From the NCBI GenBank assembly GCA_964361695.1, contig CAYIBQ010000001.1, positions 1 through 62,890 on the forward strand: a DNA stretch of 62,890 bases, given 5' to 3'. The notes under the pieces are model-generated. The model was not told the DNA's origin and searched no databases. It was given only the letters and a program-made list of their open reading frames with translations. The position numbers were made by a program, and so were the translations under genes. Shown here piece by piece: positions 57,955 through 62,235 of this stretch. Numbering within the stretch: position 1 is the first letter of the stretch; every line of letters starts with the position of its first letter. The stretch is from an uncultured Candidatus Saccharibacteria bacterium (GTDB lineage: Bacteria; Patescibacteriota; Minisyncoccia; Sungbacterales; HO2-52-23).

Positions 57955-58176
57955 GTTTAATACCTCTATAAGATTTCTACTTTTGTAGATTCGCCAATTA
58001 TCTCTAAAAAGCGGTAGTTTAATGCCTCTATAAAATTTCTACTTTTGTAGATACGCTATAAGGGTCGCGTGAACGGACGTTTAATACCTCTATAAGATTT
58101 CTACTTTTGTAGATGCAGCGAAATCAAGAATTTGATTTCTGTTTAATGTCTCTATAAGATTTCTATAAACCCAGTT
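57955..58176 (+). CRISPR. CRISPR mini-array with Cas12a-type repeats (3 intact 36-nt repeats, 1 degenerate terminal repeat, 3 spacers of 26 nt)
   Basis: Repeat 1 57955..57990 and repeat 3 58079..58114 are both GTTTAATACCTCTATAAGATTTCTACTTTTGTAGAT. Repeat 2 58017..58052 has 2 substitutions. Repeat 4 from 58141 matches for 25 nt with 2 substitutions, then diverges. Spacers are 57991..58016, 58053..58078 and 58115..58140. The repeat 3' end forms the TCTAC-TTTT-GTAGA hairpin of the Cas12a crRNA handle. Confidence 0.9.
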
Positions 58177-58252: not shown

Positions 58253-61200
58253 ATGACTACTAAAATTACCGACTTGCGGGATTTTTATAAAGTACTGAAG
58301 ACAATTACTTTTGAATTGAGAGCTGTTGATCTAAACGATCAAGGCGTTCAATTTCAGAAGACCCTGGATTTTGTCAATCAAGAGTATTTTCCTGTTTCAA
58401 AAAAAAGTTCTGACGGCATAGACGAATTAAAAGAAATACTGCGGTTTGGCTCCGAGCTGGTTGGTCTTTCCGACCGTTTTACCGCCGGCTTGACCCAAAA
58501 ATCTTTTGACTGGTTTGGTTTTGATGCGCGTAAAACCTTGATAGAAAAATTTGATCGGGACAGATATCACTGGCTTAAGAAAAAAAGAAAAATCATCGTG
58601 CCGGTCAAAAACCCCGACACGGGCAGAGCATATCAAAAGCAGTTGATTTTTCAGGATCCGATGCCGCTGTATGCCGTGATTATGATGACGGACGGCACCG
58701 GCTATCAGTTGACTGATACCATAGGCAAGCTGACCGAGAGAATACAATCTTTTCAGAGCAAAATTAAAGGAGATTTATTAAAGATTTATTCCAAATACAC
58801 TGAAACGGAAAAAGTAATCTACTATGAAAGCGGGAAAGTTGTTTTCTACGGTTTTGTCCGTTCATATCTTTCGTTGATTAAAGACCTCATGGCGATTTTT
58901 GATTTGATTGCTGTAAGTCCGAGAGACATCAAGGAATCGCCGAAAAAAGAATGCACCCGAAAAATTCAGAAAGATTTAGAAGCCATAAAAAGTGCGTATC
59001 AAGACCATGCGACAACCATCACGAGTCTCAAAGATGTTATTGATGAAGAAGCCAAGAAACCAATCATTTGGACGACTCTGAACCCGCGGGCGGTAAATAA
59101 GGATCAAAAAAAGATTGAGAAAGAATATGCGTCCGTTTTGGAGATGGAAGAAAAAAAGAAAATGCTGGAATGGGATCTCGATGAGTTAAACAATAAGAAA
59201 TTTGCCGTAGTCCAAGCCTTGGAGAATAAATTAAAAGATTCTATTCCGGAGCTGGAAATTTTGAAGGAAGACATGCAACCGCTTATCAATGTGCTTTTCA
59301 ATAAAAAGAAATATAACTACTCCCCTCTCACCGACGAAGAGAAAGAGAATTTGCGGAAACATACATTTGCAAAAACGATCTTGAAATACATTAAAATTGA
59401 AGGAGTGGTTATAAGCGACAAACAGGACATTGAAAATTACAGACAACCGGGCGAAAGATTGGCGCGGAAAAGAGAAGAATACCGTCAAATAGAACAAGTA
59501 GAAGAATTTAACGCATTCAAAAAGGAATACCGCGATTACGGGGATTTTTGCAAAGAAAAAAAAAGGCAAAGCCATAGCACTTGGCAACCTCAAATCTATC
59601 TATAACGCCATCGGCCAGGAAGTTTTGAGGCAAAAAAAAATGCAGTACTTGAGCATTTTGGTTACGGACAAGGATTATTTTTATTTAGTCCTTATTGATA
59701 AAGATTACAATGAAGAGAAAGATATAGTGGGTGAGTTGCAGAAAAACAGCCAAAACAGCGAATGGCAGATGCTTGAATACCACAAGATCACCTTCAAGGC
59801 GATTGAAAAATTAGCGCTTTTGAATGCGGCGACTTTTGATATCGAAGACCGGCAATTGCAGGACGAGGCAAGGAATTTGTGGAGAAGTTACAAAGAAAAA
59901 TGGTTCAAGGAATATACAAACAATCGCGCTTTACAAGGACTTCATGGCTATCAAAAAGAAGCGAAGAGAGCAGAGCTTCAAAAAACAGAGCTAGTTAAAA
60001 TTATTGATTTTGTTCAAAGGGTGATCGCGAAATTGTCTGACTGCAAGAACTATAATTTTCATTTCAAAAGTCCCAATGAATATCAGACATTGGAAGAGTT
60101 TGCAGATGAAATTGACGCATGCGGCTACGCGAGTAAATGGGTTTCTCTAAACGAAGAAGCGCTTTTTGCAAAAGAAAAAGAACAAGGCGGCAATGTTTTG
60201 GTTTTCAAACTGCATAATAAAGATTTTAGAAAGAGTAAACAGTCGCTTTCGAACGAACGGGATGAAAGTGAAAGAAAGGAAAATTTGTTTACGCGATACT
60301 GGCGTGATGCAATGATGCTTGGGCGGGAAGTAAGAATAACGCCGGAAATTGACATTTTCAAGCGGAAAAAAGAAGAGAGCGGAAGCACGACCAGGACGCT
60401 TACAAACAAGGAAGTCGTGAACAAAGCAAGAAATTACCATGATAAACTTTACGGCGCTTTTGGGGTGGAGTTCTATCCTGCTAAAAAATCTGATTTTGAC
60501 ACCGTGAACAAAAGGGTCATGTTTGACGAGAGTGTGCATTATCTCGGTCTTGATCGTGGAGAAAACTCTCTTGTTTCATGGTGTTTGGTTGACTCAAAGG
60601 GTAAACTTATCAAAAACGGCGACTGGACAATTTTTATGGGTGTGAATTATGCCGAGAAATTAAATTTTACGAAAGATGAGCACGGCAAAAAAGAAGAGTC
60701 CGGTTTTCATAAAGCAAGGATCGTATTACTGGAAAAATATCAAAAAGTTTCAGATTGTAATAATGAAGAAGAGAAAAGAATACTCTTAGAAGAAGCGGAG
60801 AAGCAGGAAAAAGAGTTTGCCATAGATGGGCTTTTGGCGGCAGAGCAAATCAAGAAGGGCTACTGCGGTTATCTCATCAACGAGATCAATAAGATTTTGA
60901 AAGACTATCCGCATACCTATATAGTGCTGGAAGATTTGGATATAAAAGGAAAGGTTAAAGAAGATGAAGACATTACCAATAAAATTCAGAATTTGGAAAA
61001 AACGCTTGGTGGGACGATGTATCAGGCGGTGGAGAATGCCATCGTGAATAAATTTAAGTATTACACGGTGAAGGACAAAAGCGAGTATAAAGGACTGCAA
61101 CTTGTGCCGAATATTGTTAAGGTGGAAGATTTAAGAGTAAGCGCTACGCGAGAGAATGCTCAATCTGGTAAAGTAAACTGGGTGAAATCCAAAGAAAAAA

Positions 61201-61709
61201 TCGGTAACATTCTGTTCGTAGATGAGTGTTTGACTTCGCAAATGTGTCCGAAATGCGGATTCTGCATTTGTGGCGAGGCAAAAGCAGAAAGACTGCCGAA
61301 ATTTGCTTGCCCTCTGTTCCACGAAGACATAAAGGGCGCGTCTCTGGGTTTTAAGAATGAAGGTGGTCAAGACGTTTTGATGCTGAAAGCGAGAGACAAG
61401 ACATTTACAATACGCCATCTTCATGCAGTCAAGCAGACGGAGCTTGATAAAATAAAAAAACTTGAAAATACCAATAGCAAGATTCAAAGCCTCTTGGTCC
61501 TAAGGCTCAAAAGTGAAATGAAAAAAGGATTATATAATTGGGAATCCGTAAAAAAAGACCCGCTGTTTTGCTCGGCGTGCGGATTTAATACGGAAGAATC
61601 TGAAAAATTCGGGCTTCCCACCATTAAATCCGGCGATGACGCCGCCGCTTACAATATCGCCAAAATAGGTTTGGAAGTTTATCAAGCGATGACTCTCAAA
61701 AAACCATGA
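58253..61709 (+). CDS. cas12a: Compact Cas12a-family (Cpf1-like, type V) effector, ~1151 aa if read through. It is interrupted by a frameshift in an A9 run (59556..59564), which gives track ORFs 58253..59605 and 59625..61709.
   Basis: N-terminus YKVLKTITFELRAV (Cas12a LSKTLRFELKPV-like). WED-II-like YLSILVTDKDYFYLVLIDKDY. NYNFHFKSPNEYQTLEEFADEIDACGY...VLVFKLHNKDFRK...ENLFTRYW (Cas12a YQIYNKDF...LHT.YW block). RuvC-I YLGLDRGENSL, RuvC-II YIVLEDLD, RuvC-III SGDDAAAYNIAKIGL. Frame 0 stays open and Cas12a-like upstream of the TTG at 59625, back to the A9 run. Confidence 0.85.
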
Positions 61710-62235
61710 CCGAGGAAATCGCCAAAGTAGTCGCTGATGGAATATATTCCGTTATTGTACCATTCATTGTTGCCGTTATTGCAGCCGTTGTTGCCATTCA
61801 TACGGCAAAAAAAATACCAGAGATGAAATACGAAAAGTGCAGAGTGAATTCGCGCAAAAACTGTATGAAAAACGCCTCGAGCTGTATCCGCGGCTACTGA
61901 ACCTGACGCAAGATGTCGGGAAAGAAACGATGTGGAGGAAAGGCGTCGGGGAGGTGCAGTTGACCGGTGACGATACTTTTCAGATTGCACGGGAAGCGCT
62001 TGAAGGATTGATTGAACTGCATAAAGACACCGTGATTGAACTGGTGCTTTCTGACGGATCATTTAAGAGATTCGAGAATTTAAAAAAAGCGCTGCGCAGT
62101 AATCGGTCACAAGGGAAGAAATACGGGCGGGAGCAGATGGACAATTTTTGGAAACTTCGCGAGGAGTTGCGCGAGTGGTTGCGCAAAGACGTGGGTATTT
62201 ATCACGAGTCGGCGGAGAAACTTGAGTCCAAATAA
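61706..62235 (+). CDS. Cas12a-coupled small membrane protein (single TM helix plus helical cytoplasmic domain), ~176 aa if a frameshift in an A8 run (61807..61814) is corrected
   Basis: The ATG at 61706 overlaps the cas12a TGA (ATGA). Track ORF 61706..61900 gives MTEEIAKVVADGIYSVIVPFIVAVIAAVVAIHTAKK. The frame of ORF 61837..62235 is open upstream through the A8 run (..KKNTRDEIRKVQSEFAQKLYEKRLELYP..). Confidence 0.45.

What the first reader, a model, noticed from the sequence alone, without database searches (positions are those of the whole stretch)
59541..59640. The Cas12a gene is split by a one-base frameshift inside an A9 homopolymer
- ORF 58253..59605 (frame 2) and ORF 59625..61709 (frame 0, TTG start, no obvious RBS) are not two subunits.
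- Frame 0 stays open upstream of 59625 and reads ...KKKGKAIALGNLKSIYNAIGQEVLRQKKMQYLSILVTDKDYFYLVLID back to the run GAAAAAAAAAGG at 59555..59566.
- Frame 2, by contrast, degenerates into ...KEKKRQSHSTWQPQIYL*.
- Removing one A restores a single 1151-codon gene.
- Possible explanations are a homopolymer sequencing or assembly error, a recent inactivating mutation, or slippage-based phase variation or programmed frameshifting of a defence gene.
Basis: seen in the sequence. Interest (0 to 1): 0.6.

Follow-up and report, generated by a model that had tools for sequence, protein, structure and literature searches.

The report
Frameshifted Cas12a4 gene in groundwater bacterium
A CRISPR nuclease gene of the recently described RNA-targeting Cas12a4 group, carried on a foreign DNA island in a tiny groundwater bacterium, is really broken by one extra A in a run of nine A's, and its neighbour gene and its closest relative are broken in similar ways, so this is most likely a defence locus that was switched off recently and not a sequencing error.

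Summary
An A9 run at 59556-59564 splits one gene into ORF 58253-59605 and a frame open from 59502 to 61709. Leaving out one A gives a 1151-aa protein that aligns without a gap across the junction with four full-length relatives.

The interpretation needs two corrections.
- **Gene identity.** The gene is not a canonical Cas12a: it scores 79 bits on TIGR04330, whose cut-off is 300. It belongs to the zinc-ribbon Cas12a4 group of Dmytrenko et al. 2026, closest to ca73Cas12a4 at 43-46% identity.
- **Assembly error is very unlikely.** The same A9 and the same 450 + 689 aa split occur, with 100% identical DNA, in five separately assembled contigs. These come from three Illumina filter replicates and two Logan run assemblies. 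No intact allele turned up in any collection searched.

Three further results set the context.
- The small downstream membrane-protein gene is also broken, at an A8 run and in the opposite direction.
- The closest relative carries an independent frameshift in a (GA)n repeat.
- The locus has no cas1, cas2, cas4 or cas12a.

Best reading: a recent, real inactivating slippage mutation in a decaying, horizontally acquired orphan locus (about 0.6). Leaky or phase-variable expression remains possible (about 0.2). Reads could not be checked.

The parts
57955..58176 (+). Mini CRISPR array. It has three 36-nt repeats ending in the Cas12a-type handle AATTTCTACTTTTGTAGAT, three 26-nt spacers and a degenerate fourth repeat. 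It is read towards the effector gene.
   Evidence: Tandem repeat finder gives period 62 and 2.6 copies. The sequence was read directly. Repeats and spacers were extracted, and no spacer matches the organism's own genome.
58253..59563 (+). N-terminal 437 codons of the Cas12a4-type gene, in the original frame (the REC-lobe part).
   Evidence: ORF list. Aligned to the N-terminal halves of P0003 and P0005-P0010. No Pfam, NCBIfam, PDB or PADLOC hit on its own.
59556..59564 (+). A9 homopolymer that carries one base too many (inferred ancestral A8). This is the site of the frameshift.
   Evidence: A9 is also present in L001-L005. It is one of only five A/T runs of 9 in the 880-kb genome, and none is longer.
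59564..59605 (+). Out-of-frame tail of ORF1 (RQSHSTWQPQIYL) followed by a TAA stop.
   Evidence: The tail has no counterpart in the relatives.
59565..61709 (+). C-terminal 714 codons of the same gene in the +1 frame. It covers the WED/PI-like region, RuvC motifs I-III and the zinc ribbon.
   Evidence: Pfam RuvC_1 (E 4e-15), Cpf1_PI-like (E 1e-11) and a weak Cas12f TNB hit. PADLOC Cas12a models reach E 1.6e-47. The family-invariant residues D767, E893, D1128, C998, C1001, C1106 and C1109 are all present.
59632..59640 (+). A second A9 run 76 nt downstream, in frame (codes RQKKM). Its last A is the first base of the ATG that gene callers use as the start of the 689-aa ORF.
61706..62235 (+). Small downstream gene whose start overlaps the effector's stop (ATGA). 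It has an N-terminal membrane helix and a helical domain. It is itself broken at the A8 run 61807-61814, where one A is missing.
   Evidence: Inserting one A gives a 175-aa frame. That frame is 68% identical over its full length to the uninterrupted 165-aa P0013. P0013 follows a Cas12a4-like gene in L013. No family hit reached a curated cut-off or a convincing score.

Best explanation
The A9 run holds a genuine one-base insertion (A8 to A9, replication slippage) in the chromosome of this roughly 0.9-Mb groundwater bacterium with a reduced genome.

The insertion truncates the only CRISPR effector of the genome after codon 437. That effector is a Cas12a4-type nuclease, related to Cas12a, with a RuvC domain and a zinc ribbon. 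Judging from its characterised relative, it would be an RNA-triggered RNase that arrests growth.

The gene sits on a horizontally acquired low-GC island. The island keeps only a three-spacer array, the effector and one small partner gene. It has no adaptation genes and no companion cas12a.

The partner gene is broken at another A-run. The locus is therefore most likely a recently inactivated, decaying remnant. At best, traces of full-length protein would arise from polymerase or ribosome slippage.

- **Shown:** the lesion, its reproducibility, the single-gene state in relatives, the family placement, the second lesion and the missing cas genes.
- **Inferred:** the direction of the mutation (A8 to A9), its recency, and the loss of function.
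For: 1. **Single gene in relatives.** P0005, P0006, P0007 and P0008 (1106-1141 aa) cover 99% of the read-through protein and align without a gap across the junction.
2. **Reproducibility.** L001-L005 all carry A9, the 450 + 689 aa split and 100% identical DNA over 3.6-8.3 kb.
   - Three are ENA assemblies named Hain_H51 0.1 um R1, 0.1 um R2 and 0.2 um R1. Two are Logan assemblies of ERR3858113 and ERR3858115.
   - The study these names fit used Illumina NextSeq 2x150 and assembled each filter replicate on its own with metaSPAdes (PMC8672522). The link to that study is inferred from the contig names.
3. **No general homopolymer problem.**
   - 51 of 91 A/T runs of 8 or more lie in frames open at least 50 codons on both sides.
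   - All other runs with suspicious geometry look like ordinary gene boundaries with an ATG next to the run.
   - The only two homology-supported frameshifts are the two in the island, out of its four such runs. My own hypergeometric estimate for that clustering is about 0.004.
4. **Second lesion.** The partner gene is broken at the A8 run 61807-61814.
5. **Remnant locus.**
   - The 92%-complete genome has no Cas1 and only one Cas12 RuvC hit.
   - Relatives carry cas12a-cas12a4-cas4(-cas1-cas2).
   - Island GC is 0.38-0.41 against 0.52-0.57 elsewhere.
   - None of the 60 related genomes searched has the gene.
6. **Recency.** The read-through protein deviates at only 2 of 135 family-invariant columns and keeps all catalytic and zinc-binding residues.
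7. **Recurrence.** The closest relative, L006 (65-70% identity), has an independent frameshift in a (GA)n repeat 55 codons upstream.
8. **No intact allele.** None was found among 5.8 billion protein clusters, as a junction-spanning fragment, or in the JGI and GTDB contig collections.
Against: - A minority A8 sub-population cannot be excluded, and contig coverage is low (5-11x by contig names).
- All five contigs come from one well and one sampling campaign, so they show one population, not independent lineages.
- Apart from the single frameshift, the gene is perfectly preserved. A gene that is still used would look the same.
- An A9 run is long enough for appreciable transcriptional slippage in many bacteria (PMC1088944), so 'inactive' may be too strong.
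- Loss of function has not been measured.
Confidence: 0.62

Rival explanations
1. The A-runs act as a switch or attenuator. Either replication slippage flips the run between A8 and A9 in the population (phase variation), or RNA polymerase or ribosome slippage on the A9 run gives a small fraction of full-length nuclease. Either way a costly growth-arresting effector is kept at a low level or stochastically ON or OFF.
For: - The gene has no other lesion and keeps all invariant residues.
- Two lesions in the island both sit in A-runs. The closest relative is broken in another simple repeat, (GA)n. 'Intact except at a repeat' is the usual signature of contingency loci.
- Nine A/T is the length at which slippage becomes relevant in many bacteria, and an A9 gives about 50% slipped product in Thermus dnaX (PMC1088944).
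- The codons AAA-AGG at the end of the run would let tRNA-Lys re-pair perfectly in the +1 frame before a rare Arg codon. AGG occurs at 4.3 per 1000 codons, the rarest Arg codon in this genome.
- Characterised Cas12a4 and Cas12a3 nucleases arrest growth when triggered (PMC12851939), so down-tuning is plausible.
Against: - The run is not conserved. L006 has GAAGAAAAAAGA at the same place, and the other relatives encode different residues there.
- All five assemblies show A9 only, and no A8 allele or fragment was found anywhere.
- Transcriptional indels in A/T runs are insertions, 80% of them +1 (PMC5574713). This gene needs -1 or +2, so rescue would be inefficient.
- tRNA-Arg(CCU) is present.
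- The run lies 38% into the gene, not near the 5' end.
- An AT-rich gene with 113 AAA codons is expected to hold such runs by chance.
Confidence: 0.2
2. Natural split effector. The 450-aa REC-lobe fragment and a 689-aa fragment re-initiated at ATG 59640 assemble into a working two-subunit nuclease.
For: - An ATG at 59640, 35 nt after the ORF1 stop, is preceded by GAGG at a 9-nt spacing.
- The closest relative is also split in the same general region into 374 + 774 aa, with an overlapping stop and start.
- The break lies near the transition from the helical N-terminal half to the first beta strands.
Against: - The break lies inside a long predicted helix, equivalent to P0005 H426-469. This is about 27 residues before the first strands and within the best-conserved motif of that region (LGNxKSLYNAIxREVLRQK). 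It is not in a linker. The model is of low confidence.
- Re-initiation at 59640 would drop 26 conserved residues.
- The ATG and the GAGG are simply the conserved coding sequence LRQK(K/E)M.
- Shine-Dalgarno motifs are rare upstream of ORFs in this genome, at 2-7% in a crude count.
- The two splits are at different positions and arise from repeat slippage, not from a shared designed junction.
- Four relatives are single polypeptides.
Confidence: 0.06
3. Sequencing or assembly artefact. The organism really has A8, and the extra A is a systematic homopolymer error.
For: - Homopolymers are the classic site of indel errors.
- Coverage is low (5-11x by contig names).
- A second A-run indel lies 2.2 kb away.
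- All data come from one sequencing campaign on one platform.
Against: - Five contigs from at least three separately prepared and separately assembled Illumina libraries, built with two different assemblers, agree base for base.
- The in-frame A9 76 nt downstream and 51 other A/T runs of 8 or more in coding frames are not shifted.
- The two lesions have opposite signs (+1 and -1), which a one-directional systematic error would not produce.
Confidence: 0.05

Closest known systems
Cas12a4 clade of type V nucleases (Dmytrenko et al., Nature 2026, PMC12851939), in particular ca73Cas12a4, and the characterised ApCas12a4
   Same: - 43-46% identity over 99% of the length to P0005. P0005 equals the printed ca73Cas12a4 sequence except for 5 C-terminal residues.
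- The ML tree groups the window protein with P0003 and P0005 at 98/98 support, inside a 100/100 subclade.
- ApCas12a4 is the best hit outside that subclade: 28% identity over 714 aa, E 1e-39.
- It has the three RuvC motifs, the CxxC...CxxC zinc ribbon, a PI-like domain and a Cas12a-type repeat.
   Different: - The gene is interrupted by a frameshift.
- The locus lacks cas1, cas2 and cas4, which most published members have, and lacks the companion cas12a seen next to close relatives.
- The host is a bacterium with a reduced genome.
- In my 17-sequence tree the Cas12a4 sequences do not form a resolved clade separate from Cas12a.
- RNA-triggered RNase activity is untested for this subclade.
Canonical Cas12a (Cpf1), type V-A
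   Same: - The crRNA repeat handle is the same (TCTACTTTTGTAGAT).
- The WED/PI/RuvC-I region is homologous. The family profile hits Cas12a structures at E 4e-31 to 1e-18, and PADLOC Cas12a models score E 1e-47.
   Different: - It fails the TIGR04330 equivalog cut-off, at 79 bits against 300.
- There is no REC1 or NUC Pfam hit.
- A zinc ribbon replaces the Nuc domain.
- It is about 150 aa shorter.
- In relatives a true cas12a (1298-1325 aa) sits beside it as a separate gene.
Genes broken at poly(A) tracts in reduced genomes and partly rescued by transcriptional slippage (Buchnera and Blochmannia cases; Thermus dnaX A9; Baranov et al. 2005, PMC1088944)
   Same: - A frameshift lies inside an A9 tract in an otherwise intact gene of a small-genome bacterium.
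- 9 nt is the run length at which slippage matters.
   Different: - The correction needed here is -1 or +2, whereas transcriptional slippage mostly adds one base.
- The gene is accessory and horizontally acquired, not a housekeeping gene under strong retention.
- There are no RNA data.
Phase-variable (contingency) defence genes switched by simple sequence repeats, such as restriction-modification genes of host-adapted bacteria (from general knowledge)
   Same: A defence gene is interrupted only at a simple repeat, and a relative is interrupted at another repeat.
   Different: - The tract is short and not conserved.
- It is not near the 5' end of the gene.
- No length polymorphism has been observed.

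Membership tests
Cas12a4 clade (Dmytrenko et al. 2026) | Phylogenetic placement with published Cas12a4 sequences, apart from Cas12a2 and Cas12a3 | tested here: met
   In the ML tree the window protein joins P0003 and P0005 (= ca73Cas12a4) at 98/98. It is separated from Cas12a2 + Cas12a3 at 100/99. By BLASTP, ApCas12a4 scores E 1e-39 and ca57Cas12a4 E 1.6e-30, against about 1e-5 for Cas12a2 and Cas12a3. Caveat: with only 17 rows, Cas12a4 is not resolved as one clade separate from Cas12a.
Cas12a4 clade (Dmytrenko et al. 2026) | Three RuvC motifs (D, E, D) | tested here: met
   D767 (LGLDRGEN), E893 (VLEDLD) and D1128 (SGDDAAAYNIA) are invariant in the 10-sequence alignment. Pfam RuvC_1 scores E 4e-15.
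Cas12a4 clade (Dmytrenko et al. 2026) | Zinc ribbon (two CxxC pairs) in place of the Cas12a Nuc domain | tested here: met
   C998, C1001 and C1109 are invariant and C1106 is nearly so. There is a weak Cas12f TNB hit and no PF18510 NUC hit, whereas the neighbouring true Cas12a genes of relatives do have one.
Cas12a4 clade (Dmytrenko et al. 2026) | Association with a Cas12a-type CRISPR array, and usually with cas1/cas2/cas4 | tested here: inconclusive
   An array with the Cas12a-type handle lies directly upstream. No Cas1 was found in the 92%-complete genome, and no cas4, cas2 or cas12a lies in the island. The paper says 'most', not all, members have adaptation genes.
Cas12a4 clade (Dmytrenko et al. 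2026) | [quoted passage not shown] | not testable with these tools
   This is known only for ApCas12a4. Here the gene is also frameshifted.
Canonical Cas12a/Cpf1 (TIGR04330) | Score above the equivalog cut-off over the full length, with REC1 and Nuc domains | tested here: not met
   79 bits against a cut-off of 300, and only profile positions 570-763 are matched. No REC1 or NUC Pfam hits.
Programmed frameshift / recoding site | The frameshift site is conserved among homologues | tested here: not met
   All full-length relatives are read in one frame through this region. The closest relative has no A-run longer than 6 there.
Phase-variable contingency locus | Repeat-length polymorphism within or between populations | tested here: inconclusive
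   Five assemblies all show A9, and no other allele exists in the collections searched. Reads could not be examined.

The most novel reading that the evidence does not exclude
Simple-repeat slippage works as a recurrent, possibly reversible, OFF switch or attenuator for growth-arresting Cas12a4 effectors. The repeats involved are the A9 in the nuclease, the A8 in its conserved membrane partner, and the (GA)n in the closest relative. This ultra-small groundwater bacterium would then keep an otherwise intact abortive-infection-type nuclease silenced, or at trace level, and could re-activate it.
Probability: 0.12. Interest if true: 0.6.

Novelty: new member of a known kind. Interest (0 to 1): 0.3.

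Why it matters
- **Annotation.** The two ORFs should be recorded as one frameshifted Cas12a4-type gene, not as Cas12a and not as two proteins. The small gene after it should likewise be recorded as one frameshifted gene.
- **Biology.**
  - It adds a member of a clade described only in 2026, found in a reduced-genome groundwater bacterium.
  - Effectors of this clade can be found switched off by repeat slippage in two neighbouring lineages. This fits the idea that growth-arresting CRISPR nucleases are costly and are easily lost once the adaptation module is gone.
  - The uninterrupted reading gives a compact 1151-aa Cas12a4 variant that could be tested as an RNA-detection enzyme.
  - The small membrane protein is conserved at 68% beside nucleases that are only 40% identical. 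It is a candidate accessory factor worth a look.

Tried and rejected
- **Cas12a2 idea.** My first guess, from the zinc ribbon, was Cas12a2. I rejected it. No Cas12a2 structure was hit even with the family profile, and Ba3Cas12a2 reaches only E 4e-5.
- **PDB and family searches with ORF1 alone** gave nothing meaningful.
- **A four-letter decoding word for the exact read-through protein.** No unique word exists except CTAT at 59600, which would give 13 wrong residues. I therefore modelled the intact relative P0005 instead.
- **AlphaFold model of P0005.** It has mean pLDDT 59.5 and pTM 0.41. That is too poor for a fold search, so I used only its secondary structure around the junction.
- **Pattern scans for other run-length alleles** in JGI metagenome contigs and GTDB genome contigs gave no matches.
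- **Search with a 300-aa junction-spanning fragment** found only ORF1 itself and one 68%-identical fragment of a relative.
- **Self-targeting spacers as a reason for inactivation.** None of the three spacers matches the genome.
- **Genome-wide homopolymer frameshift census.** Eleven other candidates from the crude screen look like ordinary gene boundaries. They were judged by geometry only, not by homology.
- **Partner gene next to other relatives.** It is not present in L007, L008, L010-L012, L017 or L018.
Full report
**1. The observation**

The window reads G at 59555, nine A's at 59556-59564, then GG. ORF 58253-59605 encodes 450 aa and ends ...EYRDYGDFCKEKKRQSHSTWQPQIYL*. The next frame is open from 59502, reads ...FAKKKKGKAIALGNLKSIYNAIGQEVLRQKKMQYLSILVTDKDYFYLVLID... 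and continues to the stop at 61707-61709. Leaving out one A gives a stop-free frame of 437 + 714 = 1151 codons.

One detail differs. Gene callers begin the second ORF at ATG 59640 (689 aa), not at TTG 59625.

**2. One gene, not two**

I searched about 5.8 billion protein clusters with the read-through protein.
- The search returned four full-length relatives: P0005 (1125 aa), P0006 (1141 aa), P0007 (1106 aa) and P0008 (1119 aa). They are 35-43% identical and cover 99% of the query.
- It also returned P0003 (1056 aa, 50% identity) and two more distant proteins of about 1200 aa.
- In the alignment all of them run through the junction with no gap. The window's CKEKK|GKAIALGNLKSIYNAI stands opposite CEEKRNNAVTLGNLKSIYNAI, CDDKFKKSQQLGNAKSFYNAI and CGEKFRKAKSLGDKKSLYNAV.

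The frame change must therefore lie between the conserved C-x-E-K and L-G-N. The A-run is the only repeat in that interval, and exactly one base is in excess.

**3. What the gene is**

It is related to Cas12a but is not a canonical Cas12a.
- Pfam finds RuvC_1 and the Cpf1 PI-like domain in the C-terminal part, plus a weak Cas12f TNB (zinc-ribbon) hit.
- The NCBIfam Cas12a equivalog TIGR04330 scores 79 bits against a cut-off of 300.
- The RuvC carboxylates (D767, E893, D1128) and two CxxC pairs (C998/C1001, C1106/C1109) are conserved across the family.

- The paper's sequence file prints ca73Cas12a4, which is P0005 apart from five extra C-terminal residues.
- By BLASTP the best match outside the immediate subclade is ApCas12a4, the biochemically characterised member (28% over 714 aa, E 1e-39). 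Next come ca57Cas12a4 (E 1.6e-30) and true Cas12a (E 8e-22). Cas12a3 and Cas12a2 reach only about 1e-5.
- An ML tree of 17 sequences joins the window protein with P0003 and P0005 (98/98) inside a 100/100 subclade of eight. It separates this side from Cas12a2 + Cas12a3 (100/99).
- With so few rows, the tree does not resolve the Cas12a4 sequences as one clade apart from Cas12a.

According to the paper, ApCas12a4 is activated by target RNA, cleaves RNA but not DNA, and arrests growth without an SOS response. That activity is inferred here, not tested.

**4. The locus**

- Directly upstream lies a mini-array. It has three 36-nt repeats ending in AATTTCTACTTTTGTAGAT, three 26-nt spacers and a degenerate fourth repeat.
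- The island has GC 0.38-0.41 against 0.52-0.57 in the rest of the window.
- The genome is 879,721 bp in 114 contigs and is rated 92% complete. It has no Cas1 hit and only this one Cas12 RuvC hit.
- None of the 60 related genomes searched (0.5-1.2 Mb) holds the gene. Two show weak hits to what look like ordinary Cas12a genes.
- Relatives of the nuclease sit in full loci. L008 and L010/L011 have cas12a-cas12a4-cas4. L012 has cas12a4-NYN-cas2-cas1. L018 has cas12a, a 1170-aa protein, cas12a4-like, cas4, cas1 and cas2.

The window therefore holds a stripped-down, horizontally acquired remnant.

**5. Error or real?**

Indirect evidence is nevertheless strong.

*Independent assemblies agree.*
- The exact 689-aa product is on record on several other contigs.
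- The five I could read all show A9, the same 450 + 689 aa split and 100% identity to the window over 3.6-8.3 kb. They are ENA assemblies named Hain_H51_01um_R1, Hain_H51_01um_R2 and Hain_H51_02um_R1, and Logan assemblies of ERR3858113 and ERR3858115.
- The names fit the Hainich groundwater study. That study sequenced each filter replicate on an Illumina NextSeq 500 (2x150) and assembled each replicate on its own with metaSPAdes (PMC8672522). The link to that study is my inference from the contig names.

*The assembly is not riddled with homopolymer shifts.*
- The genome has 86 A/T runs of 8, five of 9 and none longer.
- 51 of these 91 runs lie inside frames open for at least 50 codons on both sides.
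- The other candidates from a fusion screen look like normal gene boundaries with a start codon beside the run.
- The only two homology-supported frameshifts are both in the island.

*No other allele was found.* No intact allele or junction-spanning intact fragment was found in the protein collection. No other run length was found in the JGI metagenome or GTDB genome contigs.

I put the artefact reading at about 5%.

**6. The second lesion**

The ATG at 61706 overlaps the nuclease stop and opens a 64-aa ORF with one hydrophobic helix. A second ORF (61837-62235) follows in another frame.
- Adding one A at the A8 run 61807-61814 joins the two into 175 aa.
- The joined protein is 68% identical from residue 1 to the end with P0013, an uninterrupted 165-aa protein.
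- P0013 lies 8 nt behind a Cas12a4-like gene that is only 40% identical to the window's.

The partner gene is thus also broken, and in the opposite direction (-1). All five contigs share this state, since they are gap-free identical over the region. Two lesions of opposite sign argue against a one-directional technical error and for decay of the whole island.

**7. The closest relative is broken too**

L006 (P0002, 65-70% identical, from an unrelated run) is annotated as 374 + 774 aa.
- One frame reads ...YKYSFLTDEERERFCGNTNSQERF*.
- The other is open from RREREILRKHKFARTILKYIK.
- The switch lies in GAAGAGAGAGAGAGA, a (GA)n repeat carrying two bases too many (or one too few), 55 codons upstream of the window's site.

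This is a single Logan contig and so weaker evidence. It does suggest that effectors of this subclade are repeatedly hit at simple repeats.

**8. How recent, and is anything still made?**

The read-through protein departs from the family at only 2 of 135 columns where all the others agree. That is among the lowest values in the set. The lesion is therefore young, or the gene is still under selection.

Rescue by slippage is conceivable.
- Nine A/T is the run length at which selection against slippage appears in many genomes, and Thermus dnaX uses an A9 (PMC1088944).
- However, transcriptional indels in A/T runs are insertions, 80% of them +1 (PMC5574713). This gene needs -1 or +2. The partner gene needs +1.
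- A +1 ribosomal slip of tRNA-Lys on AAA-A before the rare AGG codon (4.3 per 1000) is mechanistically possible, but tRNA-Arg(CCU) is present.
- The site is not conserved in relatives, so a programmed event is unlikely.

A working two-subunit enzyme is also unlikely.
- In a low-confidence model of P0005 (pLDDT 59.5), the junction maps inside a long helix (H426-469). It lies about 27 residues before the first beta strands and within the best-conserved motif of the region.
- Re-initiation at ATG 59640 would drop 26 conserved residues.
- Shine-Dalgarno motifs are rare upstream of ORFs in this genome.

**9. Verdict**

The finding is real. The gene is a frameshifted member of the Cas12a4 group, not Cas12a.
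- Most likely history: a recent replication-slippage insertion in an orphan, decaying defence island (0.62).
- Leaky or phase-variable expression: 0.2.
- Functional split: 0.06.
- Artefact: 0.05.

It is a new member of a known kind and of modest interest. The recurrent repeat-borne lesions and the conserved small partner gene are the points worth following.

Noticed in passing
window 61706-62235; L013 1574-2071: A small protein with an N-terminal membrane helix is 68% identical between the window (after mending the frame in silico) and L013. The Cas12a4-type nucleases directly upstream of it are only 40% identical to each other. It is a candidate accessory gene of this nuclease subclade. No Pfam or PADLOC family hit reached a curated cut-off or a convincing score. 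It is absent next to the other relatives examined.
   Followed up: partly
L006 1144-1165: The closest relative of the window's nuclease (65-70% identity, Logan contig of SRR22388315) carries an independent frameshift in a (GA)n repeat. The frameshift splits it into 374 + 774 aa.
   Followed up: partly
L018 375-3887 and L017 4848-8360: An uncharacterised 1170-aa protein without any Pfam hit sits between or beside cas12a and the Cas12a4-like gene in two loci. This could be a third effector paralogue in the same CRISPR locus.
   Followed up: no
window 59632-59640: A second A9 run lies only 76 nt downstream of the broken one and is in frame. Two of the genome's five A/T runs of 9 lie in this one gene. 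This run would serve as an internal control for slippage noise in any read or RNA analysis.
   Followed up: partly
G000 contig C21, 10908-10932: A G8 run is followed after 4 nt by a C13 run, close to a contig end. This is the longest homopolymer in the genome and forms a potential G/C hairpin. It may be an assembly-end artefact or a structured element.
   Followed up: no
whole genome G000: A crude count finds GGAGG, GAGG or AGGA in only 2-7% of the 25 nt upstream of the first ATG of long ORFs. This suggests weak use of Shine-Dalgarno sites in this organism. The start positions were not curated.
   Followed up: no
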